Source: Babesia bigemina (Eukaryota). Taken from it: DNA of 64,000 nt. The stretch's first letter is position 1. The number at the start of each line of letters is the position of its first letter. Location of the stretch: positions 372,001-436,000 of the forward strand of contig NC_027220.1 in NCBI RefSeq assembly GCF_000981445.1. Direction: 5' to 3'. Shown here piece by piece: positions 25,599 through 46,250 of this stretch. A program made the translations under genes and the position numbers. The notes below the pieces were generated by a model. The model worked only from the letters and a program-made list of their open reading frames with translations, made no database searches and was not told the DNA's origin.

Positions 25599-26337
25599 AT
25601 CAAACCATTAAACTTTTTCTGGACGTTAAGTTTGTGTTTATATTTGTCTAGTCGTATATTACTGACCATCTCTGGTTGCTGCTGTCTCCTCAAGTTTACT
25701 TGAGTCCTACCCCTCGAACATATTTGGCGTTGACTTCAGGTCGCACGCCACGCTGTTACATCGTATATGTCAAGTCACTTGTTCTGCGTAGATGCGTAGC
25801 TAGTTGCCTGACTATGTTCATCTCCGGGCTCTACGTTTTCATTACTTATGGGTGTTTCCATGTAATTTTGTGTGGCATATGAGCACTCTCCTTCTGATAT
25901 CCTTCCCCAGGCCCCCGAAACTCTTATTTTGTGTATTTATCTAATGCTCTCATATCTTGCTTTAGATATCGACACTGGTGATCGTTGTGTTTCGCATACC
26001 CGACGCGATGGTGTCCGGTCTATTATGTTAGGTGGGATGATACAATGGTTCCATATCCATCCTGTTTACTGCAGTAAACATAAACTATTTACCAAATTTT
26101 TCACTTTACTGTCTCTTATCACCTCTGGGTGATACGCTTTTTATGTCTCCTACTAACACATGTGGAGGAAAACTCCGGACCATACAGACAGCTGCTGCGA
26201 TCCTTGTTGAGTTATTGACGCTCACAGAAAACTTACAGTAATTACGTAAACGATTACATATATCGCTGATTTTGGGGGTTTTTAACTTCGTGGCATTGTT
26301 ATAGTAGTTGCAATCACAGCGGTTAAGGTAACACGTA

Positions 26338-29274
26338 ATGCCATCCACAATGGACAGCTCTAGCTTGGTGAAAATTCTGTTTGTATTATGCGGGGCGTTG
26401 ATGCATTGCATTAGAAATAGCGTTGCATTCCATTGTGATTTTGACGATCCACATGATTTGCTCAGCAGTAATGCTTTAGTGAGTTGCCATTTGGATTTCG
26501 ATGACTTCAAATACGCACCTCTTGTATGCCCACACCAGATCAACGACGCCGAATACGTATGGCATCCACAGCCAACCGTTGGCTATGACGCTCGCCTCAA
26601 CACTTATGTGGTAAAAAATGGCACACTTGTATCCGTCGCTATTTCGGATGTCGTGCACTCTGAATCTAACAATCCATCTGTTAGGTTTAGATTGAACCCT
26701 TCACAAACTCAACTGTACTTCGACTTGCCAAGGCATGAACTATTAGCTATTACTGAGCGCCGTATGATATTCATTTGTGGGCCGCGAAATTTGGTTCTAA
26801 GTGATGCATTGCAGCGTCAACTGGATAGCCTCAATGGTGATGTCCAAACGCAAGAACATTCTTGGACGTCAGAAACAGCGTTGATTCGGGAGATTAGAAA
26901 ATTTGGTAAAGGATTGGGGGTAGTATTTTTGTATAGACGCCGTCAACATATACCCCTTCAGGGTTGTGGGAGCCATCCGTCTCCATTGTTTGCTGCAGAT
27001 AATGAGGTAACTGTGGACTCCAACACCGGTACACGTTCATGTGTAGCGGATCCCATGTCAGAATCACGTATAGGGTTTTTTTGTGAAGGCCTAATTGAAC
27101 CTAAGGAGTGTATGAAATTCCTCTTGGACCATGATGGCAAAATTGTGACTGCCCCCAGACCATATCCATATTGGAATTTCGATATGCATAGCCCTTGGGT
27201 AGCAGCGCGTTATTTTGATAAATTGGCATTACCGCGATTTCATGGCGAATGCATTTGTAAAGATCACAGCACTGGCCAGGTGAAAGCCAGGATAGAAATC
27301 CGTCCGAAAAACGACTACGTTTGTGACATTGCCAGCAAGATCTTCCGTAACCGTCACCGTCCAATCCGCGGCCCTTGGTGTTCGGTGGTACTTCATCCAG
27401 GCAGTACCTTGACCATAAAGTTCCCGACACAAATTGCCACGTCGGTTTCAACAAACGAGCGTTCCGATGAGGATCTCTATGTGGATGTAGACGAAGATGT
27501 TTCGAGTCTGCCATTCTCTCAATTGCCATTCATCTATGAATACGAAACTGAATTTCTGCCCAGGAACTTGGCTACGCTGAGGCAACTTAAAACTGTATAT
27601 GGCATTGATCTCTACCAAGAAGTCTTGTACCACGACGTCCTTGTCGGCGATGCTCTGGAGTTGGATATTTCTAGAATATCCCACGGTGAAGTAATGCTAA
27701 AATACCGCATGGGCAAGCCTCTTGCTCTACGAAGCGGATTGAACTCGTTTTATTTTCATTGGACATTGATATCTAGGAATGACTATGTCCCAGACAACAT
27801 AAGCGCCATCGTCAAAGTCTCTTTGGCGTTTACCCACCAGTACGGGATCCTTGGTTGCGAACGAGGGCCACAGAGGGTGTTCGATGCGGCAATCAGCGAG
27901 ACCAATTGTACAACCAAAAGGGTAGGGAACGGTGTAGGGAATACTTATGAATGCGTGTATGATATGAGGCACGGTAGACAAGTTGGCATTCATTGCAGAC
28001 TCGATGAGGAGTTGTTGCCAAACAACTGTGAATCTACGGGGTACGACCTAACATCTAACAAGATTATGCAATTCACTGGATCATATCGTAATGTAACTCC
28101 ATACCCCATTCGGGGATTTCAAGTTTTCGACATGGGTGCACAAGATAAACCCCTCAGTTTTGCTTGTGTGTGCGTCGACCAACGTGGATACGAAAAGTCG
28201 AAGCTTATTGTAGAGTACAGCCAAAAGGTATCATACCAATACAAAGTACGCGGTGAAGGGGCGTCACATCTGTTGTTACCTTACATTCTGTTGCCGTGGC
28301 GTGAGATAGGTTTACCAAGTGAAGGCAGGTTTCCTTCAAAGTCGCTCATCCTAAATAACGTATCTCAAAAGTCGGTTATGCTACACGTAGGGAAAACATT
28401 GCTGCTTCATTGTGGCATTGGTCCGATTTCATCGTTTCAATATGAACGTTTAATGCGCGGCAGAAGTGCGGGCATGATAGTAACTACATGGTTACCAATG
28501 CAACCTGACGTGTTCTATTATGCCGTCACGCAGAGAGCATACAACACTGAGCTAATACGCAAAACATACGAAGATTCGATAGTTAGCACCGCGGGTGGAT
28601 TTCGAGTCGTCTACGAGAACACGTATTCACCCGAATATCAACGCTTGACGATAACATCACCTCGATACGCCATTCTCATTTCCAAAGATCCAGCTCACAA
28701 GGAATACGTGCCCATGACATTCGTCTGCGGCAAAGCGCCTGAACAATCTGACTTGTCCTTAGTCACAGGTGATGTACCTAGTTCAGGCGACTCTGCAGAA
28801 CGAAATGTTCTTATCAATGAATCATCGGAGCGATATACGTGGAACGTCCTTGATGTTGCCGTCAAGACCACTGACCCGTACATGCAAGGCTGCGGTGTCA
28901 CCTACGAATCAGATGATCTCTTCAAGCCGGAGACTCCCAAACTCTACGACACTGACGGACGACAAATCGGTTGCAAGATAGACATTCAGAATGTTAAAGA
29001 AGCGGCTTTCTACTGCCCAGCACCGTATGTCTTGGACCCACCCAACTGCTTCGACCAAGTGTTAGTGGAAGGAAAGGTGAAGAACCTGAGCGACATCAGC
29101 CAGTCTATCGTAGCGTCACATTCCAACCACTTCGTCATACTGCAGTTCGACAGTTCTCGTATAGGGCGCGGGGAGACTCTGCGCAAGACACCGCCCTTAG
29201 AATGCCAATGCGTAACCATCAAGGGCGTCATCCTATCCACCATCCAGATTAAGCACTACTATTCCAAGGGATAA
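26338..29274 (+). CDS. 6-Cys (s48/45) domain secreted protein, 978 aa
   Basis: Signal-peptide-like N-terminus (LVKILFVLCGALMHCIRNSVA). Three s48/45-like modules: LQGCG...IGFFCEG..EP.EC; ILGCE...VGIHC...LLPNNC...FACVC; MQGCG...AAFYCPAPYVLDPPNCF...LECQC. Confidence 0.8.
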   Translation: MPSTMDSSSLVKILFVLCGALMHCIRNSVAFHCDFDDPHDLLSSNALVSCHLDFDDFKYAPLVCPHQINDAEYVWHPQPTVGYDARLNTYVVKNGTLVSVAISDVVHSESNNPSVRFRLNPSQTQLYFDLPRHELLAITERRMIFICGPRNLVLSDALQRQLDSLNGDVQTQEHSWTSETALIREIRKFGKGLGVVFLYRRRQHIPLQGCGSHPSPLFAADNEVTVDSNTGTRSCVADPMSESRIGFFCEGLIEPKECMKFLLDHDGKIVTAPRPYPYWNFDMHSPWVAARYFDKLALPRFHGECICKDHSTGQVKARIEIRPKNDYVCDIASKIFRNRHRPIRGPWCSVVLHPGSTLTIKFPTQIATSVSTNERSDEDLYVDVDEDVSSLPFSQLPFIYEYETEFLPRNLATLRQLKTVYGIDLYQEVLYHDVLVGDALELDISRISHGEVMLKYRMGKPLALRSGLNSFYFHWTLISRNDYVPDNISAIVKVSLAFTHQYGILGCERGPQRVFDAAISETNCTTKRVGNGVGNTYECVYDMRHGRQVGIHCRLDEELLPNNCESTGYDLTSNKIMQFTGSYRNVTPYPIRGFQVFDMGAQDKPLSFACVCVDQRGYEKSKLIVEYSQKVSYQYKVRGEGASHLLLPYILLPWREIGLPSEGRFPSKSLILNNVSQKSVMLHVGKTLLLHCGIGPISSFQYERLMRGRSAGMIVTTWLPMQPDVFYYAVTQRAYNTELIRKTYEDSIVSTAGGFRVVYENTYSPEYQRLTITSPRYAILISKDPAHKEYVPMTFVCGKAPEQSDLSLVTGDVPSSGDSAERNVLINESSERYTWNVLDVAVKTTDPYMQGCGVTYESDDLFKPETPKLYDTDGRQIGCKIDIQNVKEAAFYCPAPYVLDPPNCFDQVLVEGKVKNLSDISQSIVASHSNHFVILQFDSSRIGRGETLRKTPPLECQCVTIKGVILSTIQIKHYYSKG

Positions 29275-29763
29275 GTAATCCAGATGTAACAACTCGTTTG
29301 GTAATTAGAAACTTTAATTGTCAGTTTATGTTGGTTGCTCTGTTGGTTTGTGTCCCCAGTGGCAGCATTAGTATTTGGTGAAATTACTGCAGTTACCAAT
29401 CCAATAACATATTTTAGTCTTTATAAAGTTTGTGTAAAACATAATGCCTGCTTACTAGATTGAAATGAAAATAAGTCTTACTTGTTACGTTATGCAGTTC
29501 TTCTTGCCAAAACGTAAAAGGTGTGCTGCTACCATTTCCATGTATGGTCACAATTTTGAAAGCCGACAACGGCCTTAATACGTAGTAACGAGTAATACTT
29601 GATACCTAGCGATGGACGGCACGTATTTCACCGATGTTGGCAAGCGATCCATGCGGTACCTGGCCGTGTCGATCAATGGGTTGCGAAACACACGCCTACT
29701 GCCTTAACTCATCGTCATGTGCTTACGGTACACTCTGCAAGATGTTATGTAATGCTGGTGTAA

Positions 29764-30225
29764 TTATTATTATAACCTCTTGTTTTATATTGTGCTATGT
29801 GGCAACGTGCCTAGGGCCGGTTTTCGGCTTTGGCGGGGCTACCGCCTCACGCTGTTGTTGGATGCGTGATTCCCGTCGGTACGTTGCCGATCGTAACTGC
29901 TGCCATGTGTTGGCTTTCACCCTGTTAGGGCTTGAAGGTCTTCTACGAAGTCGTAGTCTTCTTTCGGTTCCATGTCCCTCATCACTATTTCATGTGTTTC
30001 TTGGATCACTACCCGTGGTATGTGAGCATCCATGCGATCCGATATGCCCAGGTACCGTCTATACTTGCTGTGTTCTTTCGTCACTATTCCCTCCCACGTC
30101 ATCACGTAGGGGATAACCCTGATCTTCGTTTGCTGGTTAAACTGTCACGCCTTGAGGTCCTCGATTAGGTCTTCATACTTCTGCTTCTTGAACTTATCCG
30201 TATCCAATAGGTTTATGTAATGTTG
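29764..30225 (-). mobile_element. Decayed, 5'-truncated non-LTR retrotransposon fragment (C-terminal part of a restriction-like endonuclease domain plus 3' end)
   Basis: One minus-strand frame reads through a TGA at 30145-30147: YINLLDTDKFKKQKYEDLIEDLKA*QFNQQTKIRVIPYVMTWEGIVTKEHSKYRRYLGISDRMDAHIPRVVIQETHEIVMRD. This matches the K..KY..L / IIPYVMTWDGIVT..H..Y...L.I....AYIQ..V...T.E pattern remembered from RLE-type LINE proteins. Three small hairpins and (TAA)3 follow. Confidence 0.7.
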
Positions 30226-31263
30226 CAGTAAGTCACATTGGTAAATGCGAACTGCGACTGTATAGGTGCCACCCAACTCAGTAACAGCCCACAGATTGAT
30301 GGGATAGTGAACAACAAAAGCTTGAATTCCTCGTATTAAGATGTTAATCAGTAACACGATGATAATCGTGTTGGAAAAGGGGTGAGTTCTAGATGTCGGT
30401 GAAGGGCGTTCAGGAAATATCAGCTGAATCGTGCGACTTATCACATCATGGCTGGGATATTCGACCTTACATCACCTTAGGTAGTTTTGTTCTTAAATAG
30501 TGATACTATGAATGAATTCACGTACATTTGGTTACGTGCCAATTAATAGAGTTAGGTGGTCCATTGAAGTGCGAAGTGTCGTTGGTTAGGTGACCCAATG
30601 CTCTCAAATTGTGACAGATGAGTAGTTGCTAACGCATTTCAGGATGTAGGATAGTGACAATCGATACTTGGCGCTGTTTCAACGGTAACTTATTTGATGC
30701 ATTACTCCATGGTTATGTTTGCAACACCCAAACCATAGTGCAGAGATAAATATGGGGTAGCTTTGTCAGTCTATATATAACCTGCTGGGCGTGCTATGTA
30801 TGTGGTGTAAAACATGCCGTTGCCATCTTTGGCGGTGTGGGTGATGGAGGATGCTTGGGTGCTTCCCTTGCTCTTAGGGGAGACGGCTTGGCGGCATGAC
30901 GGTGCAGCGTTTGGAAACGCATACTATCTCCCAATCGAAAACTTAATGGTCCGTCTCGTTCATCTACAGTGCTCCAACTTGCCATGATAGTCAGGTTCCG
31001 TGCTTGATTGATTATTGGGTTTGCAACTTTCCCCCTCCTCAGGTAGGTGGGATGTCTGTAATCTATGTTTTCTTGAATCTAGTTTTGGGGTGAGGAGTTA
31101 TGTGCCTCGCTTTAGTGCCATAAGGCTCTGCGTTGTCACTCGCTTCAGCTCCTAATCTTGCAACTTTACCCAATAAGCACACTTGGCCGTTTGGCCATGC
31201 TGTCTTATAGGCAGCGGCGCAGGCCCTGACTGCCTGGCAATGTGACTGTCCGAGGCTAGCGGC

Positions 31264-34200
31264 ATGGCGCCGAAGGCCTTGACTGACTGTCCCGAGAACC
31301 TTCGAGAGGCGATCGACTGGCTCATCCAGGTGAAGCACTGTGGTGGGATTTCGACTGTGTCCGACGCTCTCGCTTCGTTGTTTGACAATGTTGCTCGGGA
31401 CGCTGAGAAATCTCAGCCGTCTCTGCTCGACTCGGACCGGCCGTCCGCCAGAGATGTGGTCTCCAAGCTTCGGGCGTTTCAGAGTACTCTTCCGGAAGAC
31501 TCTGAGAATCCTCATAAAAACATTATACATAATCTCTGCGCCTCCGCTGGCAGCCTATTAGGTTATCGGTATCCTGGTACCTACTACGGTTCTGGGATTG
31601 TATATGGCAACGCCTCCCGTCTGTGCCATGCCATCCTGGCATTCTTGTATCCCGTGTTCAGTGATGTCCATGATAACCAGCCGTACGTTGCTGGTAGAAG
31701 TGTATTGCGTGATGATGTAATTGTGGAATTAAAATCCCAACTATGGCGCGGCCACAAGGGGTTTTGTCAAGCCATCCCCAGGGTGGCCACTGGCCTGCAG
31801 AGGTACAATGCCGCTGTCAAGGCTTCAAACGAAAGAGTCAAGGAGCCGATTGAGACCGTGTTGAATTACGTGAAACCAGATGGTGAGTTGTGTAAAGGTA
31901 TAAAAGATTTGCAGATATCGGAAACATCTCCGCTAGCTGAATATGAGAGAACTGTGTCCACGGCTGTCTCCCTGGTGGAGGGGTGCAAAGAGGTTGCCCG
32001 GGTATTCTCTAGAAGTCTGACGGCGGCCACAAATGCCATAAATGACTTCAACCCCAAGCTGAAAAGGAAGCTCGAGAACGCCAGGAGAAGCTTTTTCAGC
32101 CACGTTGACTGGCTGAGCAGGTGGTCCAAGAAGGGGGAGAAAAAGCGGTTGGACAAGATGGTACAGAAAATCAAGAGCAAGCTTAAAAGGTTCGCAAAAG
32201 CCGTCAAAGACAAAATTAAACAAGAAGTGCATGCCGTTGTCGAGGTGTTGAAGGACCGTGTCAAAGAGTTTAGAATGAAGTTGGAAGCAATTACTGTCAG
32301 TCTGGAGAAATATGTCAAGGAACTAGGACAGTGGATGGGTGAGGCGAAAGAGTATATTAATGCAGTGAAGAAGTATGTTGATCAGATAATGAAGCAACTG
32401 GATGGAGAGCATAGAAAGGCGATTGACAGGGCCGCCGCGGACATTGATAGTGAGCTTGGCAAGAAGGTTGAGGAGTTGAATAAGTGGATTGAGGATGCGG
32501 ACGCCGCCGTAAAGGCGGCCAAGGAGAAGGCCGAGGATGTATATGGGAGGTTGGATAAGGATAGCAGTACGAAATTTAGTGTGGGACTTAAGAAGATCGA
32601 AGCTGCAAAAGGCAAAATTGAGAGTGTGAGTAGCGAGCTTAAAAATGTTCACAGTGATTTGGGGGATTGGAAAGTTGTGGTGCAGGATGTGATCAGCAAA
32701 GCTGCTGGGAAGGCAGATGAGGTGAGTGAGCAATTGGATCCTGCTCAACAAGATGAAAACCATTCAATTGGCAAAAACCTTAATGATATTGAGACCTCTG
32801 AAAAAGCAATCAATGAAGCAAATGAAAGCCTCCAGGAAGAAGTTACCAAGTTGAGTAAGTCGATCACGGAAGCTGACCGTATCCGTGAGCAGGCGCAGCA
32901 GAAAGCCCAGGAAGTTTACGATAGCTTGACAGTTCATAACGAACTGAGTGAGAAAATCAAAGAAATTCAGGCAGCAAATCAGAAGATTAAAGATGTCAAT
33001 ACTGGGCTAAAAAGTGTGGACAGCAAATTGGGAGAATGGAATAAGGAGGCTAGCACAGTTATCGAAGGGGTGGTGAAAACGGCGACGGAAGTATATGACA
33101 AGTTGAATCACGGAGATAACCAACAGGTGATTGGCCAAGGCATCAAGCAGATTCAGGACGCCAAACAGAACGTTGATGATGTTGCTAAGGGGTTAACATC
33201 TGTTAATGAGGATTTGCAGAAATGGAGAGAGGCGGCGGAGACTGTGCTTAGCACTACGGTTGATAAGGCTGCAGAGGTGCATAAAGCTTTGGATCCTGCG
33301 AAAGGTAAGTCGACGCTGGGTGAGCAAATCGATGCGATCGATACTGCTGGACAATATATTAAAAGTGCAAATGATCAACTCAAAAGCCAAGTTGGCAATT
33401 TAAGTAAGTGGATGCAAGATGCCGAAGATATCCGCCATAAGGCGGAGGAAAAGGTCAGGGAAGCATATAATAAGTTGCAAGTTAATGAGAAACTGAGCAA
33501 AAATGTTAAGAGGATTGTGGATGCTAAGGAAAAAATAGATAAAGTTCATAATGCAGTTGAGACACAAGTTAAGGAGTTGGGACGGTGGAAGGATCAGACT
33601 GAATGTGTTATTGGCAGGGCTATAAAAAATGCGGAGTATGTCAATGATACGTTGAGAGATCGTCTTGACCCTAAGATTGGTGAAATTGAACAACATAATG
33701 ACGCAATTAAAGAAGCTCAAGCTAAGCTTGAGCAGGCAGTTCAGCATCTAGGTAAGTGGAGCGATGCCGCAAAGAATGTCATTAAGAAGGCCGACGAAAA
33801 GTGTGATGAGATACTTAGACGGGTTAAAACGGATCCCAGCAGCAAGGATGATACTATTTATAAGCAGGCTGAATTGTTAAAATACCAGGGCATAAAACTT
33901 CTGAAGGCTGCCGATGTTGCAAAGCAGACAGTTGAATCCAAAGTCAAGGATGCGTTGGAGGCTGTGAAGGCTATGGACACAGATCTCAAGAAGGATTTGT
34001 TTGAAGTCAAGACAAACATTGCTGAAGGGATAAAAACGGTTATTGAGGAGTTGAAAGTTGATCAGTTGGGTGATAAAGTGAAAGAGGATTTGAAGCAGTT
34101 GAGGGAGAGGATTGTGAATCTCAAGGATAAAGTGGATAAACCCAGCGGCAGCGGCCTGGTGGAAGAGCAGCTGAAAGCGCTTGGAAAGGCGAAAACTCCG

Positions 34201-37200
34201 CTTACTGAGAAGACTAGTCAAATAAAGACGCAGACGGAGGAGATGGATAAGAAGTTCAAGGAGACCATCAAGGATCCGCTTGACAAAGGTCTCCAAGCAG
34301 TTGAAGGGGAGATCGAGAAGCTCTACGGACAAATCAATCCAGGAGGCAGCGCAACAGCTGCGGATAAAAAGCAACTTCACAAAATTTTCGAGCATATGAA
34401 AAAAGAAGTTGCGGTGATTAAGGGGAGGGCAGGGAATGGTGTAAATGATCAAAACTCCAAAGGCTTGGAGGGGATTGTCACTAATGCGAAGGTGCTTGCT
34501 CAGCAGTTCCACGGTGGCAAAAAATTTGAAAATAAAGTTAACGGGTTTGTAATGGAAATACTGCGGGAGAATAAGATTGTGCAGGGAATACTTAAGAAGT
34601 ACGCACAGGACAAGGGTTTAGGTGAAAATTACACGAAGCTTGATAGCTCAGGAAATTCACCGTTTCGCAAGTATATCGCAGAGAGTTTGCAGATACATCT
34701 GAGAGACGAGGCTAATGCGGCTGGTAAAAAAGTTGAAGAAAAGTTCGGAGAAGCGGATAATTCCAGGGAGAAGATTCAGAGATACATCACTACTGTAAAA
34801 GAAGGCCTAACAACATTTGTCAATGAGATCGAGAAAAGACTCAAAGTTGAACAAATTAATAATTTGGAGGGTAGTATTGATACGCTTGTAGGCACTATAG
34901 TCTCGGGCATCGTGAATGATATCAAAAGTAGAGGCCAACCCCGCCAAATCCAAACTAACGACGACCTTCTTAAACTCGCCGTCAAGCGCATCTTCATGAA
35001 GCTCATCGTTATTGTACGTAAAGTTGCAGCGGAAGTAGAATTCTTAGGCACCAAAGTTTTTGGCAAAATCTTAGACACTATAAAGCCGACTGTTGATGAA
35101 CTTGACAAAAATCTAAAAGCGGTGACAGACACCGGCAGAACTCCCGTTCATGGCACAGCCCAAGCAGTGGACAGGGCGATCGAGGGGGTGAAGGGTATGG
35201 TTAGAAGTACGATTGAACAGAAATTTGAGAGCGATGTCAAAACGCCAGTTGAACAAGCAGTTCAAGGCCTTGAAAAGGCCGTTACCGAATACGACAAGCA
35301 AGTTAAGGAACAAGTCAGGGAAGCGGTTAAGGGGGCGATTGAGCAGGCGGCTGAAGAGATTAGTACGGATGAGAATGTGACGCTTGGTGACGTGAGGGAT
35401 AAGATGGAGAATTTCAACGGTGCGTACAGTTTAATTATAGGTGGGCTTCAAGGACAACTGAGTTCAATACTTGATAAGCAGTTGACGAGTAGAGCGGATA
35501 AAGTCGACATTAACAAGGCTGCAGGTTTCAAGAAATATACAGGTCACGTATCAACTGGCTATACCACTGACCACTCGTATGGTAAAATGAATTCGGCAAT
35601 CAACGTCATTAAGGGCGAGGGTCTGAATGCTCTTGAAAATACAATTGGTACCACTGCAGCGCAGAAGATAGAGGCAGACGCATTCAAAAAGCCGTTTAAA
35701 GCAATAGAAATACAGCTCTCGACAATCACTGATGTCGTTACTAACGAAGGCTTTAAATTTCTTGGCGATAAAGATGAAAGCAGAAAAGGTGTCAAGGTTT
35801 TGTTGGCTGAGCTTAAAGATGGGTTTGACAATAAGCCAGTGGGTGAATCAGCAAAAGGTCTTGATGCAATAACAAAGGCTATTGGAGAGCTGCGAAAAAA
35901 CACTTTTTCTCCTAAATCCGAGCAAATTGGCAAAGCTGTCACAGAAATGAAGTCGCAGGTTGAAGATCTTAAGAACAAGTTGAAGAGTGATGGTAAAGAT
36001 GATAAAGATTCAGTCATCAACGCATTGAAGGATTTGAAGGATGCTGGTCTAGCTAGTGGGAAATGGAACGGCAAGGATGGACGTCAAGTAGGCGGTCTTC
36101 AGAAAATCGAGGATGATCTTAGAAAACAAAATGAGGAGTTACGCAATCAAACAATAGAAATTGGCAAAGCCTTCGACTATACTCTAAGAGAATTGAAGGG
36201 TATGCTTGCGCAAGTCGGCTTGAGGTTACACAACATCATTGTACCGGATGACGTCATGGACAATCTGAAAGATATTAAATTGAAGATTGGTAGGGGAAAA
36301 AATATAGGGCTTGAACATATTCATGAATTGATTAAGAAACTACAAGAAGGGAATTTTACACATAATCCCGAAGAAATTGGCAAAGCAAAGGACGAAATCA
36401 CAAACAAACTTAAAAAACTGCAAGATGACTTGCAAGGTGACAAGAACAATGACGTCATCGAAACGTTGAGAGATTTGAAAGATGTTGGCCTTGGCAATGG
36501 TGATTGGAAAAAGAAAAATAACACAAAAGGCCTTGAGAAAATCAAAAATGAGCTTAAGGCTCAACTAGATGAATTATCCGTCCAGCCAGATTTCATTGAC
36601 TTAGGCATTGCCCAGATTACCAAGCAGCTTGATGAGCTGAGAACCACATTTCAGAGTGGTAACAAAAATCCTAATGATGACGTGATAAATAGATTGGAAG
36701 ATATGCGAAGGAATGGGCTTAGTGATGAGACAAAATCTTGGAACGGTAAAGATGGCCTCGGTAAAATAAGGAGTAACTTTCAAGAGCAAAATGTTAAGTT
36801 GTTCGAGGCAAGAGATCAAATTGACAAAGCAACTGACATTGTACTCTCACATACACAAAGTGTGCTTAAAAGTGCTGAACATAAATTGCGTAGCGATGTA
36901 GCTAACGACGACGTCCTGGACCATTTAGAGGAGCTGAAGAGAAAGATTGGTAAAGATGGTGTTGTGGAAGACAGTCTTCAAGGAATCCATAATAAGATTC
37001 ATGAGCTGCAAGAACGGGAGTTCGTTGTGCAATCTAAAGGAATTGTAGAAGCAAAGAAGCATATTGAAGAGGGACTTCAAGAGCAGCGGATGACATTGCA
37101 AAAGAATGTTACTAATCCGTTGAATGATTTGGTAAACAAGGGTTTTGGCCCCAGTGAGAACTGGAATTACCTTAATGCCAAGGGGTTTAATCACATTCAA

Positions 37201-40200
37201 GATAACCTTAACACTCAACAAGATACATTGTCACAGCAACCCCAAGACATACAAAATGGCGTCGAACTGATTAACGATGAGCTTCAGAGTATTCGAGATG
37301 CGTTGCAGGGAACCGCTGACGGTAATCCCCAAGACAGAGGCGTGATCAAGAATTTGGAATTCATGACAAAGCAGATCGGCACTCACGACGATGCAGGCCT
37401 TAAGAAAATCAAAAGTGACATAGAGTCTCTTAAGCAGAACCAGGTCCCAGTTATCACCAAACATCTTAACATCATGTCCAGTGCAATTACCAACGCAGCC
37501 GGACAACTGGGCTGGAATCTGGATCAGCTGGAGACCCCGCATATCGACGTCAAACTCAAAGGCATACAGGACGGTTTCAAGAACCTCCGACTCTCCGACC
37601 TGGACGACGCCATCAAGTTGTGTGACGACTTCCTTCATAAAGCCGACGAGATAGAAAGAAACACCATCGCCGCCCTGTTGAAGCACGTCGACAATGAGGT
37701 GGACGATGCCATCAAGGAACTCACCAAGGAGGCCCGTACGCTGTACGTGGACTCGGTGAGGGATGCGTTGGAATTGTTTGCCAGGAAGGTCAATGAGGAT
37801 TTAGAGCAGCTGCCGAGTGACATCAATCACGACTTGACGATCGGCTTCAAGGGGTTCATGAATGCGGTGGAAGGTGACGAAGGCGTTAACATCAAACAGC
37901 TCATGTGCGTAGAAAGCAGAGAACTGAAACACTTATCTGCCGCCCTCGGCAGTTTCTTAGGTGAAGTCAACGAGTACGTCCGGCAGGAGACTCAGAGGGT
38001 GCATAAGGAGCTTGGTGATGAAAGACATCCGTCATTGCCACCGACCGAAGATCCATATGTACCCCAGCTTGATTCAGTCCACAGGGATCTCAACACTGTA
38101 CTCAATTACATCTGCGATACGGAGACATTCGACGATAAGCTGCGAACCCTGCTGGCCGATCTAAAGACAGCAATCGCCGGGCTGGTACCCTCCGACTTCA
38201 AGCACCCGTCCACTCCGCTGCTGGACACTGTCGCTAGCGGTCTCACCAAATTCGCCGGTGAGTTTGGTAATTGTTACATCTCCACCTACTCCGGTCAGCG
38301 GTGCAGGGAGGAGCACGCCCACAAGTACGCCAAGGTGTTACTAAGCATGGTACCTATGACGTACAATGCTCTTAACAAGTTGGCGACGAAATGTGAGAGT
38401 GAGTGGAAACCACTTCACATTAGTAAGTTCACCGCTGACGACAGAGACAACCCACTTGGCAACTACCTCGCCAGGTGCGGGTACAGGGTGTCCAGTTACG
38501 AGAGTGGGCAGGAAGGCGAGTTGAATAACATGTTCACTGGAGGTGGGATTTACGAGTTACTTGCCACCCCAATTGAGGATGTGGACATCGATATGCTGGT
38601 TGACGGTGAGCAAGTAACTTACGATATTAACTTGGTCCACATCATATCGCTGCTCTACAACACCCTATGCCACTACTTCCAGGTCTGCCACCTCTACGTT
38701 CCCCCTGAGCCAAGATACCCGTGCACAGTCAGGGACATGCTGTCGTGGCTCTCCGGGCTGCAGTATACACAGGTGGCAGACAAGCTGCCTGACCACTGCA
38801 AGGCGTTGCTCAACCGCCGGTGCCACGACGGCGACACGCCCAACACGGAGGATCCTGTGATGGCCAAGTGCATTGGTGAGCTATCATCCATCATCGCAAC
38901 AACATGTTCACGCTCCAATGCCCTGCTCACCGCCATCCAGGGTAACGGCCACGGCTTCGACATGGCCGCCTACCCGTATTCAGTGGACTTCTCCAACAAC
39001 CGTGCCAGGCTCCACTACCCCGCTGACCCAGATGCGCTGCTTGATATGCTACGTGAGATAGTGTTCCGCCTTTGTAAAGTGCTCTACTTCCTGTACTCCC
39101 AGTGCTGCCGCAGCACCGCCCGGGTCAGGGGGTGGAGGGAGTGCGTGTACGGCAGGCAGGTTCAGTCACACCACTGGCAGTGTAATACATTGGGAAGTGG
39201 TTCCGCTACCAACGATACCACTACGACTGCTGCAACTACCACTTCCTCCACCGCCAAGCACGGCTGCCCGCCCACCTCGCCTCTACAGTCGTTCCTCTCC
39301 GACTGCTGCCACGGACTCCTGCCGCATACCCTTACCGCTGCTGACGGCACTATCAAATGTGCTAACTGCACCGTCAACCAACCTGGCAAGCAGTGCCTCA
39401 CTCCGCTCGGCTTCTGGGACCTGGGCATTGCTGCTTCCATAAGTGGCACCGGCTGGGATCTCGCCAATCGTCTCGGAGATATGTGCCGTGACGCTGACTC
39501 ATGCCTCTTCGTGCTCTGTCGTACTCTGTTCTGGTTGTGTCCCGCCACACCCTCATCACTCGCCGACGTGTTTGCATTGTATGCTCAGGCGTTACGGAAG
39601 TGGGACCCTCATGACTGGGTTGAAAACCGTGGCGGCAATTACACCGATGCCTCCGATCTTATATCGCATCTCAACACCGACAGTATCGACGGCTTCTTTC
39701 CACTGTCGGCACAGCTCCACGGCAGCTATGAAAATCACAAGCTTACCAGTGCCATCTCATCGCTCGCCGGCCATGACCATAAAAGCCACGATGCGTTGTC
39801 CAGCCTCTTCAAAGACTCCACTTGCAAGCCACCCAGTGGATGCGCTCCCTACCTCCAACCCCTAGGACTCCATGCCCACCACACCTACCCGCAGAAGCAC
39901 GCCGGACTATACATCACGTGGATAATATACTTGGCATGGGAGTTCTGGGAGTTGCTCTACCAACTACTGCAGGCTTTGGACAACATCGACTGCACGGCCG
40001 CCGGCTGCGCCACATGCCCTTGCCAACCCGGCATACACGGTGGGAAGGACGCCTGTCACTGCCCGTCCATCGTCCAGTGCGCCGGACCACTGCCCACCCT
40101 CTACCGTTACGGATTCACGTATCGCAACGCATATCTGCTAGTCACCGATAACCGTGCCGTGCGCTGCGGTGACCTCAACACAAAACTCAAACAGGCACTG

Positions 40201-40491
40201 CATTCTGGCCACTTCACTGAATTGTTCCGGCAAATCGACAAACTCATCTGGCACATACGGATGCCTTTCTTCTACTGCTTCATCGCACTGTGGACTCTCG
40301 TGGCGCTTTACATACTTCACAATTTCCTCTACCGCTTGGACATCTTCCGCATCAGGTCACATCTCCTGACCACCAAGGCCTCACACTTCATCGACGTCAA
40401 GGCGCTAGTCATCCCGAACAGAAAGATGCTCTCACTCTACGACGCCGATTACTTCGACGATGACCCTATTGGTAACATTGCGCCCCAGTAA
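31264..40491 (+). CDS. Giant VESA1-like variant surface antigen with long coiled-coil repeat region, 3075 aa
   Basis: ves N-terminus MAPKALTDCPENLREAIDWLIQVK. C-terminal VESA blocks YISTYSG, NPLGNYLARCGY, PCTVRDMLSWLSGL, SPLQSFLSD, CLTPLGF and CPSIVQCAGPLPTLYRYGF. TM MPFFYCFIALWTLVALYILHNFLY and tail RLDIFRIRSHL. Single exon. Confidence 0.9.
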   Translation: MAPKALTDCPENLREAIDWLIQVKHCGGISTVSDALASLFDNVARDAEKSQPSLLDSDRPSARDVVSKLRAFQSTLPEDSENPHKNIIHNLCASAGSLLGYRYPGTYYGSGIVYGNASRLCHAILAFLYPVFSDVHDNQPYVAGRSVLRDDVIVELKSQLWRGHKGFCQAIPRVATGLQRYNAAVKASNERVKEPIETVLNYVKPDGELCKGIKDLQISETSPLAEYERTVSTAVSLVEGCKEVARVFSRSLTAATNAINDFNPKLKRKLENARRSFFSHVDWLSRWSKKGEKKRLDKMVQKIKSKLKRFAKAVKDKIKQEVHAVVEVLKDRVKEFRMKLEAITVSLEKYVKELGQWMGEAKEYINAVKKYVDQIMKQLDGEHRKAIDRAAADIDSELGKKVEELNKWIEDADAAVKAAKEKAEDVYGRLDKDSSTKFSVGLKKIEAAKGKIESVSSELKNVHSDLGDWKVVVQDVISKAAGKADEVSEQLDPAQQDENHSIGKNLNDIETSEKAINEANESLQEEVTKLSKSITEADRIREQAQQKAQEVYDSLTVHNELSEKIKEIQAANQKIKDVNTGLKSVDSKLGEWNKEASTVIEGVVKTATEVYDKLNHGDNQQVIGQGIKQIQDAKQNVDDVAKGLTSVNEDLQKWREAAETVLSTTVDKAAEVHKALDPAKGKSTLGEQIDAIDTAGQYIKSANDQLKSQVGNLSKWMQDAEDIRHKAEEKVREAYNKLQVNEKLSKNVKRIVDAKEKIDKVHNAVETQVKELGRWKDQTECVIGRAIKNAEYVNDTLRDRLDPKIGEIEQHNDAIKEAQAKLEQAVQHLGKWSDAAKNVIKKADEKCDEILRRVKTDPSSKDDTIYKQAELLKYQGIKLLKAADVAKQTVESKVKDALEAVKAMDTDLKKDLFEVKTNIAEGIKTVIEELKVDQLGDKVKEDLKQLRERIVNLKDKVDKPSGSGLVEEQLKALGKAKTPLTEKTSQIKTQTEEMDKKFKETIKDPLDKGLQAVEGEIEKLYGQINPGGSATAADKKQLHKIFEHMKKEVAVIKGRAGNGVNDQNSKGLEGIVTNAKVLAQQFHGGKKFENKVNGFVMEILRENKIVQGILKKYAQDKGLGENYTKLDSSGNSPFRKYIAESLQIHLRDEANAAGKKVEEKFGEADNSREKIQRYITTVKEGLTTFVNEIEKRLKVEQINNLEGSIDTLVGTIVSGIVNDIKSRGQPRQIQTNDDLLKLAVKRIFMKLIVIVRKVAAEVEFLGTKVFGKILDTIKPTVDELDKNLKAVTDTGRTPVHGTAQAVDRAIEGVKGMVRSTIEQKFESDVKTPVEQAVQGLEKAVTEYDKQVKEQVREAVKGAIEQAAEEISTDENVTLGDVRDKMENFNGAYSLIIGGLQGQLSSILDKQLTSRADKVDINKAAGFKKYTGHVSTGYTTDHSYGKMNSAINVIKGEGLNALENTIGTTAAQKIEADAFKKPFKAIEIQLSTITDVVTNEGFKFLGDKDESRKGVKVLLAELKDGFDNKPVGESAKGLDAITKAIGELRKNTFSPKSEQIGKAVTEMKSQVEDLKNKLKSDGKDDKDSVINALKDLKDAGLASGKWNGKDGRQVGGLQKIEDDLRKQNEELRNQTIEIGKAFDYTLRELKGMLAQVGLRLHNIIVPDDVMDNLKDIKLKIGRGKNIGLEHIHELIKKLQEGNFTHNPEEIGKAKDEITNKLKKLQDDLQGDKNNDVIETLRDLKDVGLGNGDWKKKNNTKGLEKIKNELKAQLDELSVQPDFIDLGIAQITKQLDELRTTFQSGNKNPNDDVINRLEDMRRNGLSDETKSWNGKDGLGKIRSNFQEQNVKLFEARDQIDKATDIVLSHTQSVLKSAEHKLRSDVANDDVLDHLEELKRKIGKDGVVEDSLQGIHNKIHELQEREFVVQSKGIVEAKKHIEEGLQEQRMTLQKNVTNPLNDLVNKGFGPSENWNYLNAKGFNHIQDNLNTQQDTLSQQPQDIQNGVELINDELQSIRDALQGTADGNPQDRGVIKNLEFMTKQIGTHDDAGLKKIKSDIESLKQNQVPVITKHLNIMSSAITNAAGQLGWNLDQLETPHIDVKLKGIQDGFKNLRLSDLDDAIKLCDDFLHKADEIERNTIAALLKHVDNEVDDAIKELTKEARTLYVDSVRDALELFARKVNEDLEQLPSDINHDLTIGFKGFMNAVEGDEGVNIKQLMCVESRELKHLSAALGSFLGEVNEYVRQETQRVHKELGDERHPSLPPTEDPYVPQLDSVHRDLNTVLNYICDTETFDDKLRTLLADLKTAIAGLVPSDFKHPSTPLLDTVASGLTKFAGEFGNCYISTYSGQRCREEHAHKYAKVLLSMVPMTYNALNKLATKCESEWKPLHISKFTADDRDNPLGNYLARCGYRVSSYESGQEGELNNMFTGGGIYELLATPIEDVDIDMLVDGEQVTYDINLVHIISLLYNTLCHYFQVCHLYVPPEPRYPCTVRDMLSWLSGLQYTQVADKLPDHCKALLNRRCHDGDTPNTEDPVMAKCIGELSSIIATTCSRSNALLTAIQGNGHGFDMAAYPYSVDFSNNRARLHYPADPDALLDMLREIVFRLCKVLYFLYSQCCRSTARVRGWRECVYGRQVQSHHWQCNTLGSGSATNDTTTTAATTTSSTAKHGCPPTSPLQSFLSDCCHGLLPHTLTAADGTIKCANCTVNQPGKQCLTPLGFWDLGIAASISGTGWDLANRLGDMCRDADSCLFVLCRTLFWLCPATPSSLADVFALYAQALRKWDPHDWVENRGGNYTDASDLISHLNTDSIDGFFPLSAQLHGSYENHKLTSAISSLAGHDHKSHDALSSLFKDSTCKPPSGCAPYLQPLGLHAHHTYPQKHAGLYITWIIYLAWEFWELLYQLLQALDNIDCTAAGCATCPCQPGIHGGKDACHCPSIVQCAGPLPTLYRYGFTYRNAYLLVTDNRAVRCGDLNTKLKQALHSGHFTELFRQIDKLIWHIRMPFFYCFIALWTLVALYILHNFLYRLDIFRIRSHLLTTKASHFIDVKALVIPNRKMLSLYDADYFDDDPIGNIAPQ
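32320..33830 (+). repeat. Degenerate ~57-64-aa helical repeat array inside the giant ves gene
   Basis: L-x-x-W anchors with TGG at 32332, 32485, 32668, (TCG at 32860), 33037, 33223, 33409, 33586 and 33757. Most are followed by A..V...A..KA.EVY..L. Confidence 0.75.
35780..37440 (+). repeat. Second degenerate ~66-80-aa repeat array inside the giant ves gene
   Basis: D/N/G-V-I-x-x-L-x-D/E-L...G...GL.KI units start near 36007, 36247, 36448, 36676, 36907, 37105 and 37339. Confidence 0.7.
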
Positions 40492-42740: not shown

Positions 42741-43054
42741 GTTTACCCGTACTGACTACTACGGCCTTACTGGTGTATATTCTATTCATCACACTGAGTG
42801 ATAGCACTGAACTTTTCGCTTCAACTAGAAATTTAGTGGATATACGGATTATACAGGCATGACATTTATTAAAAAATGAAATGATACGTTAGATTGCCGT
42901 GATAAGAAAAGGCACGCGTATATTATCTAATGACATCAGAGTGAGAGATACTAGAAGCATTCATATAGCACGTAACCTAGCACACCATCGCACTCAAAAG
43001 ATGTTAGCTTAATATGATTGGCTAAATGCAACCACTCAGATACCTCATTAGGAC

Positions 43055-43315
43055 ATGGAGAGCCAGAAGGCTTACGTTATTGTCCGGTTCATAGACTGTG
43101 GCTTGATGTATTACGTGTACAATTACTGTGAGTTCTACTGCCTGGAACTTATGAATCAAGTTACACAATGTGTGCTCAATACCATGACACATATAGCAGT
43201 GATTGCGGTGTCTATAATCACCTTTAAAAATCACGCTGAAGTTATGGGAAACGTGGGCATGGGCGCAGCTATTGTGGCTTGTTTGTTGTACTGGCTAGCC
43301 AAACAGAGCTTTTGT
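43055..43315 (+). pseudogene. Truncated triose-phosphate/phosphate translocator fragment (C-terminal helices only)
   Basis: GLMYYVYNYCEFYCLELMNQVTQCVLNTMTHIAVIAVSIITFKNHAEVMGNVGMGAAIVACLLYWLAKQ aligns without gaps to AVCYYLYNDFAFYCLGQMNQVTHSVTNTLKRVLVIVASIIIFRNTVTPLGYVGMAMAVLGAFWYSLVKQ of the neighbouring gene. No upstream TPT sequence was found. Confidence 0.85.
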
Positions 43316-44120
43316 GCATCGTGGAATGAGGTGACAGCGGTTTACCTTCGCAGCCTCCCTGCGCGTCGGCAGCAACGCGTTGTCGTAGAAAAGAGAAGTC
43401 CAGTATCTGGTATATCATCGGCGCCGCCAGGGTACTTAATAGCACACTCTAATACGCCGCATGTTGACATTCGCTATAATGTGCTCGTGTGTGTAGCGTA
43501 CACGTGGTCGCGGCGATTCCACAAAATGTTGCGTCCCAATGCCATTTCGGCATGATTGCAAGTGTCAAAGCCTACTGAAGTCATGTCACGTCAAACATTT
43601 ATCGCTATTTGGTTGAAAAATTATATCATCGGCTGCCCATGGTTGACGTTGTGTGTAACAGTATTTGGCGCCTCAACCGCGTGTCTTCTATTCTTAAGCA
43701 CATAAATCGGCGCCAACACATTGCTTTCTTTTAGAATTTTGCATTTCTGTGGCTCCTGACGTTTTGGGGTGATAGCAGTTGGGTTGAGTGTCGTTTCCCC
43801 TCTCACACTTGCAGATTCTCTATACGGTACTTTGCTGTTTAATCGGTTCCCACAATATTTATACGGTGTGTGGGATTATTTGAAGATTGCGCATATTGGA
43901 ATCTAAGTGTGTTCCCCGCACTTAATCCAAAAGCAGTTGTATATAGACACTTGCCGTTGTTGAACCTTAAACTAATCAAAAAACTTTTAATGATTGCGTA
44001 TCGCATACGAAACGCTTAGAGAAGACGCATTCTTTCTTCATTTGGGTACACATCTATTGATTGCTGCCGTGAAGTTCGGCCGCTTACGTGATTGGATACT
44101 GTTAAGTCATTGTCACCAAG

Positions 44121-45254
44121 ATGTCAGATTCACCCGCGGATAATGCAAAGATCGTTGTAGTGGATACTACTGAAGGTCAGCAATCACCTGAAACCTCTAA
44201 ATGGAAGGCTTGGTTAGAGGACCACGATAAGCTGATATGCGCTTTGCGTAGTTTTAACTGGCGGCTGGTGTTCGGCGTTTGTATGTGGTATACACTCAAT
44301 TGTGTATACGTTGTACAGCAGAAGATCTTTTTAAATGCCATACCGCTGCATGTGACATTGAGCGGGGTGCAGATGATTCTGAGTTCGATTTTCGCTTTGA
44401 TCGTGGTCGGTCTTAAATTGAGACCTGCGCCAATTATCACCAACCTAAAGAAGGCGATGCAGGTATTTATCCCTATTGGCCTGTGCCATTTGTTGGTTCA
44501 CTACGGCGCGGTGATTTCGATGGGTCTAGGAGCGGTGTCTTTCACGCAGGTTATCAAATCGGCGGAGCCTGTGACCACTGCTATCCTCTCTATGATAATC
44601 TTACGCGAATTCCATAGTGTATTCACGTACCTAGCTCTCGTCCCAGTTGTTGCAGGTGTGTCATTGGCATCTGTGAAGGAGTTGGACTTCAGCATCGGAG
44701 CATTTTTGTTCGCATTGCTATCTAACGTCGGGAGTTCACTGCGGTCCATTTTTGCAAAGGTGACTATGGATAACAAAATTGACATCGGAGAGAACTTGAC
44801 GCCCAGTAACATATACATGATACTTACGGTGATATCCGGTGTGCTGTCTATTCCTATCGTTTTGGGAGCGGAGGCATACAAGTGGAAGTCCGTGTGGTTG
44901 ACCCACACAGCCGAAATGAGCGCCGGTAAGCAGGCCGAGTTATTGTTTCACGCATTTTCGTCCGCCGTATGTTACTACCTCTACAACGATTTTGCTTTCT
45001 ATTGCCTGGGTCAGATGAATCAAGTGACGCACTCTGTGACTAACACTTTAAAGCGCGTGCTGGTCATCGTTGCGTCCATCATCATCTTTAGGAACACAGT
45101 TACCCCGCTCGGTTATGTAGGTATGGCCATGGCTGTTTTGGGTGCGTTCTGGTACTCTTTGGTCAAGCAGGGCGTTTTCTCACGCAAACCTAAAGAGGCT
45201 GAGCAGGTGAACGATCGTGAAGAAGATCAAACTGCAAGCGAGCAGAAGGTGTGA
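44121..45254 (+). CDS. Plastidic-type triose-phosphate/PEP:phosphate translocator (apicoplast phosphate translocator family), copy 1
   Basis: WYTLN, HLLVHYGAVISMGLGAVSFTQVIKSAEP, SNVGSSLRSIF and NQVTHSVTNTLKRV; about 10 hydrophobic segments. Confidence 0.92.
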   Translation: MSDSPADNAKIVVVDTTEGQQSPETSKWKAWLEDHDKLICALRSFNWRLVFGVCMWYTLNCVYVVQQKIFLNAIPLHVTLSGVQMILSSIFALIVVGLKLRPAPIITNLKKAMQVFIPIGLCHLLVHYGAVISMGLGAVSFTQVIKSAEPVTTAILSMIILREFHSVFTYLALVPVVAGVSLASVKELDFSIGAFLFALLSNVGSSLRSIFAKVTMDNKIDIGENLTPSNIYMILTVISGVLSIPIVLGAEAYKWKSVWLTHTAEMSAGKQAELLFHAFSSAVCYYLYNDFAFYCLGQMNQVTHSVTNTLKRVLVIVASIIIFRNTVTPLGYVGMAMAVLGAFWYSLVKQGVFSRKPKEAEQVNDREEDQTASEQKV

Positions 45255-46250
45255 GGAAACAATTCCGGTATTGTGTAGCGCGTTTTATTAATGTCGAGTC
45301 TGCGGAGCGCGCTACCGCGAATTGCCATGCCCCGTTTTATATGCAATACGCGCCTCTTCTGCACATGGTAGGCTGTGCTTTCCATTCCTAGCTTCTATCA
45401 CGAAGCGTATCATATGCTAGATGGTTAGTTTCAACGAAATGAGTTGCACCTGTGTGTGAACGAGGGAGACGAGTGTCGCCCCCAACCATCTGAAGACTTC
45501 AGAGATTTCTGGAGCATATCGGACGATCTTCTATAAAAATTACAAATTAACGCAGTGAAAAGGATCGCTTAAACTCTGTACATCGGGATTAGGCGTCCTA
45601 CTTAGTGAAAGACACCGCGTTTGATTTTTTGTGTGCGACTTTGAATAATTTTTATTAATTACTGACATTATGTGCCTCCACAAGTTGCGTAGACGTGGAA
45701 TTGCGCAAAGATGTCTCGCATTGCTGCACTATGCGGCCCATGTGCAGCCAAATAATTCTGTTTTAGCGCAGAAAATTCTGCACGACCCCATCGGCAATGG
45801 TGAGCGGCTAGCGCCTGTGGCCTTCCACGATTCTTTCTTTACTTACTATTACGGTCTCTTAAATACCTCAAAATTGGCCTTAGAATTTTTGCTAGTCAGC
45901 GACATCTACGGTCTTCTTTAGTAGTCGCACCTTCCACGTAGTAGGAAGGCGTCGTTTCTTGCCGGTGTTTTATTCCTTTCATCAACAGCTTTCTCCATTT
46001 AGTCAAATTTGTAGGCGCTGATTAATATATCAGATGTGCAAATCATTGTGTGAATTGGTGTCTGCTGTAGTTGCATGTCTATAGAAAGTGTATGAGAGTG
46101 GAAGGCTCGCCTTCTGTTTTGTCTTAATCGCATTTTGTGCGGATTCTGTCCAATACATCTTGCGTTTTGGATGCCATATAAGTATTCAAAAGGCGAATAG
46201 CTTGCATATGCCTACTTTGTAGGTAAGTTGTTGTTACTCAGGTCTCAAAA

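What the first reader, a model, noticed from the sequence alone, without database searches (positions are those of the whole stretch)
29880..30225. Non-LTR (RLE-type LINE) retrotransposon relic in a piroplasmid genome, just upstream of a giant ves gene
Seen: two short ORFs in the track (30145-30444 and 29917-30105) are one frame broken by a single TGA, reading FKKQKYEDLIEDLKA*QFNQQTKIRVIPYVMTWEGIVTKEHSKYRRYLGISDRMDAHIPRVVIQETHEIV. Known: R2/R4/NeSL/CRE-type LINEs end in a restriction-like endonuclease with a K..KY motif. From memory, microsporidian RT proteins continue IIPYVMTWDGIVT..H..Y. Haemosporidian and piroplasmid genomes are generally described as nearly free of transposons. Inference: this is a 5'-truncated TPRT insertion (the PD..E catalytic part and the RT are missing), implying a LINE family was or is active in this lineage and may be tied to antigen loci.
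Basis: partly seen in the sequence, partly recalled or inferred. Interest (0 to 1): 0.9.

Follow-up and report, generated by a model that had tools for sequence, protein, structure and literature searches.

The report
Babesia LINE relic with microsporidian kin
This is a broken 449-base tail of a LINE retrotransposon, flanked by a duplicated target site and missing from related contigs, in a Babesia genome; its family has intact near-identical copies (so it is likely still mobile) and branches among microsporidian elements, which would mean it likely came from another intracellular parasite.

Summary
Observation confirmed and extended. Window 29764-30212 (minus strand) is a 5'-truncated copy of a LINE. 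It is 86% identical to residues 1226-1326 of a 1347-aa Babesia bigemina RT-CCHC-RLE protein. It ends in (TAA)3 and lies between imperfect 19-bp repeats. Contigs of four public runs skip a net 468 bases there, one repeat plus the element. A family profile aligns end to end with R2 structures, and the folded C-terminus matches R2 at Z 14. B. bigemina has eight 1347-aa records differing by 0-4 residues. Relatives occur in B. ovata, B. caballi, B. divergens and T. equi. Trees nest the piroplasm elements among microsporidian ones (AU p=0.012). My ten paper searches did not find the intact young copies, the microsporidian kinship or the empty site in print. Four of ten fused gene models join the element to ves sequence; enrichment is untested. 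The relic itself is dead; the family is the interesting part.

The parts
29764..30212 (-). 5'-truncated LINE copy, 449 bp (base 30213 fits both the element and the repeat)
   Evidence: tblastn; boundaries from repeat scan; 468-base skips
29847..30213 (-). ORF remnant: C-terminal half of the RLE domain (from residue 1226 of P0007, keeps KKQKY) and the ORF tail. Premature stops at 30145-30147 and 29917-29919, frame change near 29910, natural stop at 29847-29849
   Evidence: P0007 residues 1226-1326 at 30213-29911; P0005 residues 65-85 at 29912-29850
29773..29846 (-). 3' UTR of the element
   Evidence: contigs of other copies align over it (tables 2 and 8); it lies inside the skipped 468 bases
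29764..29772 (-). (TAA)3 at the element's 3' end, likely the tail
   Evidence: only TAATAATAA on either strand of the 64-kb window; inside the skipped part; one other copy aligns down to 29763 and then runs on unlike (X1 record 1)
29745..29763 (-). 3' copy of the 19-bp target-site duplication
   Evidence: 16/19 identical to 30213-30231, 10 exact; joints show 8-10 letters fitting both sides
30213..30231 (-). 5' copy of the 19-bp target-site duplication
26332..29274 (+). neighbour: 6-Cys (s48/45 domain) ORF, 471 bases from the 3' repeat
   Evidence: PF07422, E 9.5e-15
31264..40491 (+). neighbour: 3075-aa ves1-like ORF, starting 1033 bases from the 5' repeat, opposite strand
   Evidence: no VESA1_N Pfam hit; BLASTP to the B. 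caballi protein named VESA1 alpha, E 3e-12; 62% to the host part of P0311

Best explanation
The stretch is a broken, 5'-truncated copy of a restriction-like-endonuclease LINE, likely inserted by target-primed reverse transcription from an intact copy of a family that is likely still mobile in Babesia bigemina and likely came to piroplasms by horizontal transfer from microsporidia. Shown: homology, boundaries, the 19-bp duplication, the empty site, the intact 1347-aa relatives and their domain order (RT YIDD 818, CX2CX8HX4C 1119-1135, PD 1202, KKQKY 1234). Inferred from R2 biochemistry (established knowledge): the element's protein nicked the target and copied its RNA from the (TAA)n end. Copying stopped after about 449 bases, and a second cut 19 bases away left the duplication. 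The copy never had RT or the catalytic PD..E and has since decayed. Odds by step: LINE relic 0.98; TPRT insertion with this duplication 0.93; family recently active 0.8; microsporidian (or microsporidia-borne) origin 0.65; R4/Dong clade 0.65.
For: 87/101 identity to P0007 residues 1226-1326. Contigs of other copies match to 30213 and then run on in LINE sequence (loose ends in X1, X2, X4, X5). Joints 29744>30213 (X1, X2) and 29746>30215 (X2) skip 468 bases; X4 and X5 skip 483 with 15 other letters, net 468: 4 of the 5 runs laid, 3 studies. The family profile aligns over positions 22-746 of 775 with R2Tg, E 4e-54, including the CCHC, PD and K..KY columns; L1 matches only positions 21-358. The AlphaFold model of P0022 (pLDDT 81) has R2 structures as all 7 Foldseek hits at E<=0.001, and Z 14.0 and 13.3 (rmsd 3.9 and 3.8, 165 and 158 residues aligned) against 8.0 for the next fold. 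Eight GenBank records of 1347 aa fall into 4 sequences that differ by 1-4 residues. Five T. equi copies differ by 7-23 residues. Identity over RT-RLE is 46-47% to Hamiltosporidium elements and 26-30% to insect elements. Piroplasm rows sit inside starred branches with Vairimorpha and Hamiltosporidium, with Enteropsectra and Dictyocoela outside; AU p=0.012 against a microsporidia-only clade.
Against: The empty-site contigs are about 10-19% different from the window (table 8), so they may be a paralogous site or a related species, not an allele. No contig with a filled junction was listed, but the tables were cut (450 and 34 rows not shown). The repeat alone is modest: 2 of 297 random anchors scored as high. 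The (TAA)n end is shown for this copy only; other copies' loose ends start at 29783-29807 with different letters. Some 1347-aa records lie on 7-16 kb contigs and may be assembly duplicates; activity was not observed directly. For origin: the AU rows were chosen after seeing the first tree; the root hangs on a long branch; letter make-up is uneven. 53 of the 86 rows in the clade are unnamed or carry animal or bacterial labels (Octopus, two mites, Polistes, two MAGs) whose true source I did not test. Only the best 120 of 229 hits were listed. No named R4 or Dong sequence was in the trees.
Confidence: 0.9

Rival explanations
1. Same relic, but the family came from an arthropod (tick or mite) or another unsampled donor that also supplied microsporidia; there was no direct microsporidia-to-piroplasm step.
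For: Mite-, wasp- and octopus-labelled proteins fall inside the large clade. Many near relatives are unnamed metagenome proteins. Microsporidia exchange transposons with animals (PMC4202319, passages).
Against: Four microsporidian genera span the clade from base to tips. The mite rows group with Enteropsectra outside the piroplasm-containing branch. Insect elements on chromosome-scale contigs are only 26-30% identical. No tick was named among the 120 listed hits.
Confidence: 0.25
2. The family was inherited vertically from an alveolate ancestor and lost in most apicomplexans; the microsporidian placement is an artefact.
For: Patchy presence with losses is one of two scenarios in PMC9141347. 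RLE LINEs are an old group (PMC4640811). That paper also reports R2-classed elements in Eimeria, which I could not include.
Against: 46-51% identity over 500-700 columns between piroplasm and microsporidian elements; T. equi is closer to V. apis (51%) than to Babesia (42%); AU p=0.012; no other alveolate was named in the 120 listed hits.
Confidence: 0.07
3. The fragment has been co-opted: it regulates the neighbouring ves gene or encodes a small functional protein (the annotated 61-aa P0003).
For: It lies 1033 bases upstream of the ves-like start, and the 61-aa frame is on record as a protein.
Against: Two premature stops and a frame change. Of 10 listed differences from other copies, 6 alter the protein or stop it (random expectation 0.8; small, partial list). 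Related contigs carry the same intergenic region without it.
Confidence: 0.04
4. Assembly contamination from a microsporidian or host genome.
For: Similarity to microsporidian proteins; some family records lie on short contigs.
Against: The copy sits between a 6-Cys gene and a ves-like gene with a duplicated target and an empty site. The family is on megabase contigs of five piroplasm species, and the Babesia copies form one clade with 100 support.
Confidence: 0.01

Closest known systems
LINE-like elements of B. bigemina, B. ovata, B. divergens and T. equi (Rodriguez and Makalowski 2022, PMC9141347; models Bova_19, Bdiv_22, Tequ_3)
   Same: Same species pattern and RT content; very likely the same family (model sequences not compared). 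I read the abstract, methods, results, the start of the discussion, further passages and parts of the supplement.
   Different: In the parts I read, the paper gives no endonuclease type, phylogeny, target duplication, intact young copies, empty site, B. caballi data or donor lineage. Three B. divergens elements were auto-classed as R2.
R2 retrotransposons (R2Tg 9DOU/9NL3, R2Bm 8GH6/8IBW)
   Same: One ORF with RT, CCHC knuckle and C-terminal PD-(D/E)xK endonuclease; same fold.
   Different: 14-17% structural identity; no rDNA target here; no CxxC pair before the RT in P0007, so no canonical N-terminal zinc finger (Cys list); dispersed copies; 19-bp duplication.
Microsporidian RLE LINEs (Hamiltosporidium, Vairimorpha, Enteropsectra, Dictyocoela), classed 'Dong-R4' by RepeatMasker in PMC7313128 supplements
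   Same: Nearest named relatives, 46-51% identical; the pre-RT region is homologous too (E 3e-32). Dong-R4 is the only RLE-type category among that paper's LINE columns (RLE status from my own knowledge).
   Different: The host is an apicomplexan; the Babesia ORF has about 200 extra low-complexity N-terminal residues. That my microsporidian hits are the paper's Dong-R4 families is inferred, not checked.

Membership tests
RLE-encoding non-LTR retrotransposon (family level) | non-LTR reverse transcriptase in a single long ORF | tested here: met
   P0007, 1347 aa, RVT_1 E 5e-30; best PDB matches are L1 and R2 proteins. Absent from the relic itself.
RLE-encoding non-LTR retrotransposon (family level) | CX2-3CX7-8HX4C knuckle after the RT (spacing from PMC5678591) | tested here: met
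   CX2CX8HX4C at 1119-1135; aligned to the R2Tg knuckle
RLE-encoding non-LTR retrotransposon (family level) | C-terminal PD-(D/E)xK restriction-like endonuclease, no APE | tested here: met
   PD 1202 and KKQKY 1234 aligned with R2Tg; fold Z 14.0; Pfam found only RVT_1 in P0007
TPRT insertion (this copy) | intact 3' end, truncated 5' end, target-site duplication, empty site | tested here: met
   caveat: the empty-site contigs are diverged
TPRT insertion (this copy) | 3' simple-repeat tail shared by the family | tested here: inconclusive
   (TAA)3 in this copy; tails of other copies not resolved
R4/Dong clade | RT phylogeny with named R4 and Dong references | not testable with these tools
   no named reference sequence was returned; circumstantial support, and insect outgroup N-termini that look Dong-like to me (recalled)
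R4/Dong clade | target specificity (rDNA or microsatellite) | tested here: inconclusive
   one target only; it is intergenic, and the TAA run is in the inserted part; no Rfam match at gathering level in 29200-31300
R2 clade | N-terminal zinc finger(s) and 28S rDNA target | tested here: not met
   no CxxC pair upstream of the RT in P0007; this insertion is not in rDNA
Active autonomous element | transcription and new insertions observed | not testable with these tools
   only contigs were available and no run is on record as RNA; near-identical intact ORFs are indirect evidence

The most novel reading that the evidence does not exclude
A microsporidian LINE jumped into piroplasms, probably inside a shared tick and perhaps twice (Babesia, T. 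equi). It is jumping today in B. bigemina and lands preferentially in or beside ves antigen genes. There its breaks, dispersed homology and RT help drive the ves transposition and rearrangement that these parasites show.
Probability: 0.15. Interest if true: 0.85.

Novelty: new member of a known kind. Interest (0 to 1): 0.5.

Why it matters
Piroplasms are treated as almost free of mobile DNA, and the one survey that saw LINE-like repeats left their type, age and origin open. Intact copies at 99.7-100% protein identity point to a live mutagen in a cattle parasite, and filled or empty sites would serve as strain markers. A transfer between two unrelated intracellular parasites that can share ticks would be an unusual route for a LINE, and it addresses that survey's open gain-versus-loss question. 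Jackson et al. (PMC4066756, passages) describe routine ves1 transposition between loci. An element that recurs in ves loci of three species is a testable candidate contributor, although tolerance of insertions in redundant genes explains the pattern equally well.

Tried and rejected
No whole genome was held, so no copy count, target consensus or ves enrichment test was possible. Pfam does not recognise the relic (only Cas9_C, below cutoff). A single-sequence fold of P0006 was useless (pLDDT 32). By eye I thought degraded CCHC-like sequence lay near 30750-30900; neither tblastn nor the profiles support it, and the repeat fixes the 5' end at 30213. A weak PD-like stretch at 25962-26030 scores 1.1 bits, equal to the reversed-window null. 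Rfam found nothing at gathering level around the site. The metagenome scan found no relative. No RNA holder was listed; the runs guessed to be RNA also cover intergenic DNA, so I draw nothing on expression. The ESM Atlas gave only unnamed, mostly arthropod clusters at scores of 0.90 or lower. One origin versus two for Babesia and T. equi is unresolved (AU p=0.22). Three look-ups of earlier findings returned nothing. Tree rows dropped: P0242 beforehand as partial and P0230 for coverage (124 of 126 candidates kept); searches used hand-picked subsets of 43 and 20 rows. The main text of PMC5660447 has no mention of reverse transcriptase, although PMC10463595 cites it for an RT expansion; its supplements, not opened, may hold it. 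PMC13465657 discusses BovB and L1 matches in B. bigemina, a different matter (passages).

Full report
Observation. A protein search found it on record as a 61-aa protein on a 493,739-base contig, plus short relatives named from Babesia bigemina and B. ovata. A search among longer proteins returned a 1347-aa B. bigemina protein with an RT domain, P0007. The window matches residues 1226-1326 of P0007 at 87 of 101 positions, E 3e-46, and nothing else in the 64 kb matches significantly. I infer that the window is B. bigemina from these identities and from the neighbours: a 6-Cys gene and a ves-like gene.

Anatomy. Similarity begins abruptly at 30213; the open frame upstream is flanking DNA. Downstream there is a second premature stop (29917-29919), a frame change, the natural stop at 29847-29849, a short UTR and TAATAATAA at 29772-29764, the only such run in the window. 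Directly outside both ends lie 19-base repeats, 30231-30213 and 29763-29745, alike at 16 of 19. On its own that is modest: 2 of 297 random anchors scored as well. Public contigs settle it. X1 and X2 join 29744 to 30213 (X2 also 29746 to 30215), skipping 468 bases with 8-10 letters fitting both sides. X4 and X5 skip 483 with 15 other letters, again net 468. 468 is the 449-base element plus one repeat. Four of the five runs laid show a joint, from three studies; X3 has a contig that starts at 30213, but no joint was listed. One X4 contig runs from 29518 to 31347 without the element. These contigs differ from the window by about 10-19%, so they give the pre-insertion state at a paralogous site or in a related strain or species; they do not prove polymorphism within one population. 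Contigs of other copies match up to 30213 and continue in LINE sequence, which shows the 5' truncation directly.

The family. P0007 has YIDD at 818, a CX2CX8HX4C knuckle at 1119, PD at 1202 and KKQKY at 1234. A profile of 84 relatives aligns with R2Tg from RT through the endonuclease (E 4e-54) but with L1 only over the RT and thumb. A model of the C-terminal 222 residues of another B. bigemina copy (pLDDT 81) has R2 structures as all 7 Foldseek hits at E<=0.001 and scores Z 14.0 and 13.3 against 8.0 for the next fold. Eight GenBank records carry a 1347-aa ORF, in four sequences that differ by 1-4 residues, on contigs from 7 kb to 3.5 Mb; some may be assembly duplicates. Relatives occur in B. 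ovata, B. caballi (a cluster of 29), B. divergens and T. equi (13). The relic differs from other copies by about 5-9% in DNA (table 8). 6 of 10 listed differences change or stop the protein (partial list), which fits neutral decay but is weak.

Mechanism. From R2 biochemistry (established knowledge; overview in PMC5678591 and PMC4640811, passages), the likely course is as follows. An intact copy was transcribed; its protein nicked this AT-rich intergenic site and primed reverse transcription at the RNA's 3' end. Copying stopped after about 449 bases, and a second cut 19 bases away left the duplication. The copy was dead on arrival. These steps are inferred; the products are shown.

Origin. The RT-to-RLE search gave 229 hits, of which 120 were listed: piroplasms, many unnamed metagenome proteins at about 44%, microsporidia, a few animal- or MAG-labelled proteins, then insect elements at 26-28%. 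Of the ten best hits to the relic among 148, eight were piroplasm, one Polistes and one Vairimorpha apis. In a 124-row FastTree, the 13 piroplasm and 20 microsporidian rows share a long branch with 100 support. With a mixture model on 43 rows, piroplasms fall in a 99-support branch with Vairimorpha and Hamiltosporidium, while Enteropsectra and Dictyocoela lie outside. On 20 rows, a clade of microsporidia without piroplasms is rejected at p=0.012; a single piroplasm clade is neither found nor rejected (p=0.22). Limits: rows were chosen after the first tree, the root branch is long, composition is uneven, many rows are unidentified, and there are no named clade references or Eimeria elements. 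I put microsporidia-to-piroplasm transfer at 0.65, a third donor at 0.25 and vertical descent under 0.1. Microsporidia do infect hard ticks at low prevalence (PMC8760655, abstract), which gives a meeting place but no proof.

Antigen loci. The relic is 471 bases from a 6-Cys gene and 1033 from a ves-like start. Of 65 piroplasm gene models with LINE sequence, 10 carry 100 or more foreign residues, and 4 of these, from three species, match the window's ves-like protein. ves genes are long, numerous (154 ves1 in B. bigemina) and sit in gene-poor, labile regions (PMC4066756, passages). Fused models favour long exons, so this is a lead, not an enrichment result.

Prior knowledge. PMC9141347 already lists LINE-like elements in B. 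bigemina (0.97% of the genome), B. ovata, B. divergens and T. equi, and leaves one gain with losses versus two gains open (supplement searched). PMC10463595 notes RT-motif clusters in B. caballi (passages). PMC7313128 supplements class microsporidian LINEs as Dong-R4, among other types. Ten searches showed no paper on the endonuclease type, intact young copies, empty sites or microsporidian kinship of the piroplasm family. The library lacks most subscription journals and Repbase, and most hits were seen only as listings.

Verdict. The finding is real and correctly read: a dead fragment of a known kind of element whose presence in this genus is published. Its value is as a pointer to an apparently young, intact LINE family in Babesia and T. 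equi, with a probable microsporidian origin and a possible tie to ves loci. Novelty: new member of a known kind. Interest 0.5; 0.85 if transfer, current activity and ves targeting all hold (probability about 0.15).

Noticed in passing
P0311, P0012, P0027, P0179 (database proteins) versus window 31264-40491: Gene models fuse the LINE with ves-like sequence in B. bigemina, B. ovata and B. caballi. In P0012 ves sequence lies on both sides of the LINE; in P0311 it resumes at about residue 600 of the window's protein. Of 65 models examined, 10 had 100 or more non-LINE residues, and 4 of those were ves-like.
   Followed up: partly
P0209 and cluster (T. equi): Five full-length T. equi copies of 1312-1314 aa differ by 7-23 residues. 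The element is 51% identical to a Vairimorpha apis element but 42% to Babesia ones, which hints at a separate arrival.
   Followed up: partly
P0028 (B. ovata): A second, deeply diverged lineage of the element (51% to P0007) exists in B. ovata beside the main one (79%).
   Followed up: no
window 25962-26030, minus: Weak resemblance to the PD..E part of the endonuclease, upstream of the 6-Cys gene; it scores at null level. It could be an older relic or chance.
   Followed up: yes
window 43052-47309: Three tandem triose-phosphate-transporter-family ORFs, two of them about 70-74% identical in DNA.
   Followed up: no
window 28800-29300: The 3' part of the 6-Cys gene draws many diverged contigs in all four runs, as a multicopy family would; PMC5660447 reports a 6-Cys expansion in B. 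bigemina and B. ovata.
   Followed up: no
P0224, P0238, P0219, P0243, P0030, P0204, P0125: Proteins labelled Octopus, dust mite, Polistes and two bacterial MAGs fall inside the microsporidian clade; they may come from microsporidia sequenced along with those samples (untested).
   Followed up: no
window 31259: Contigs of all four runs carry one extra base just upstream of the ves-like start codon (table 4).
   Followed up: no
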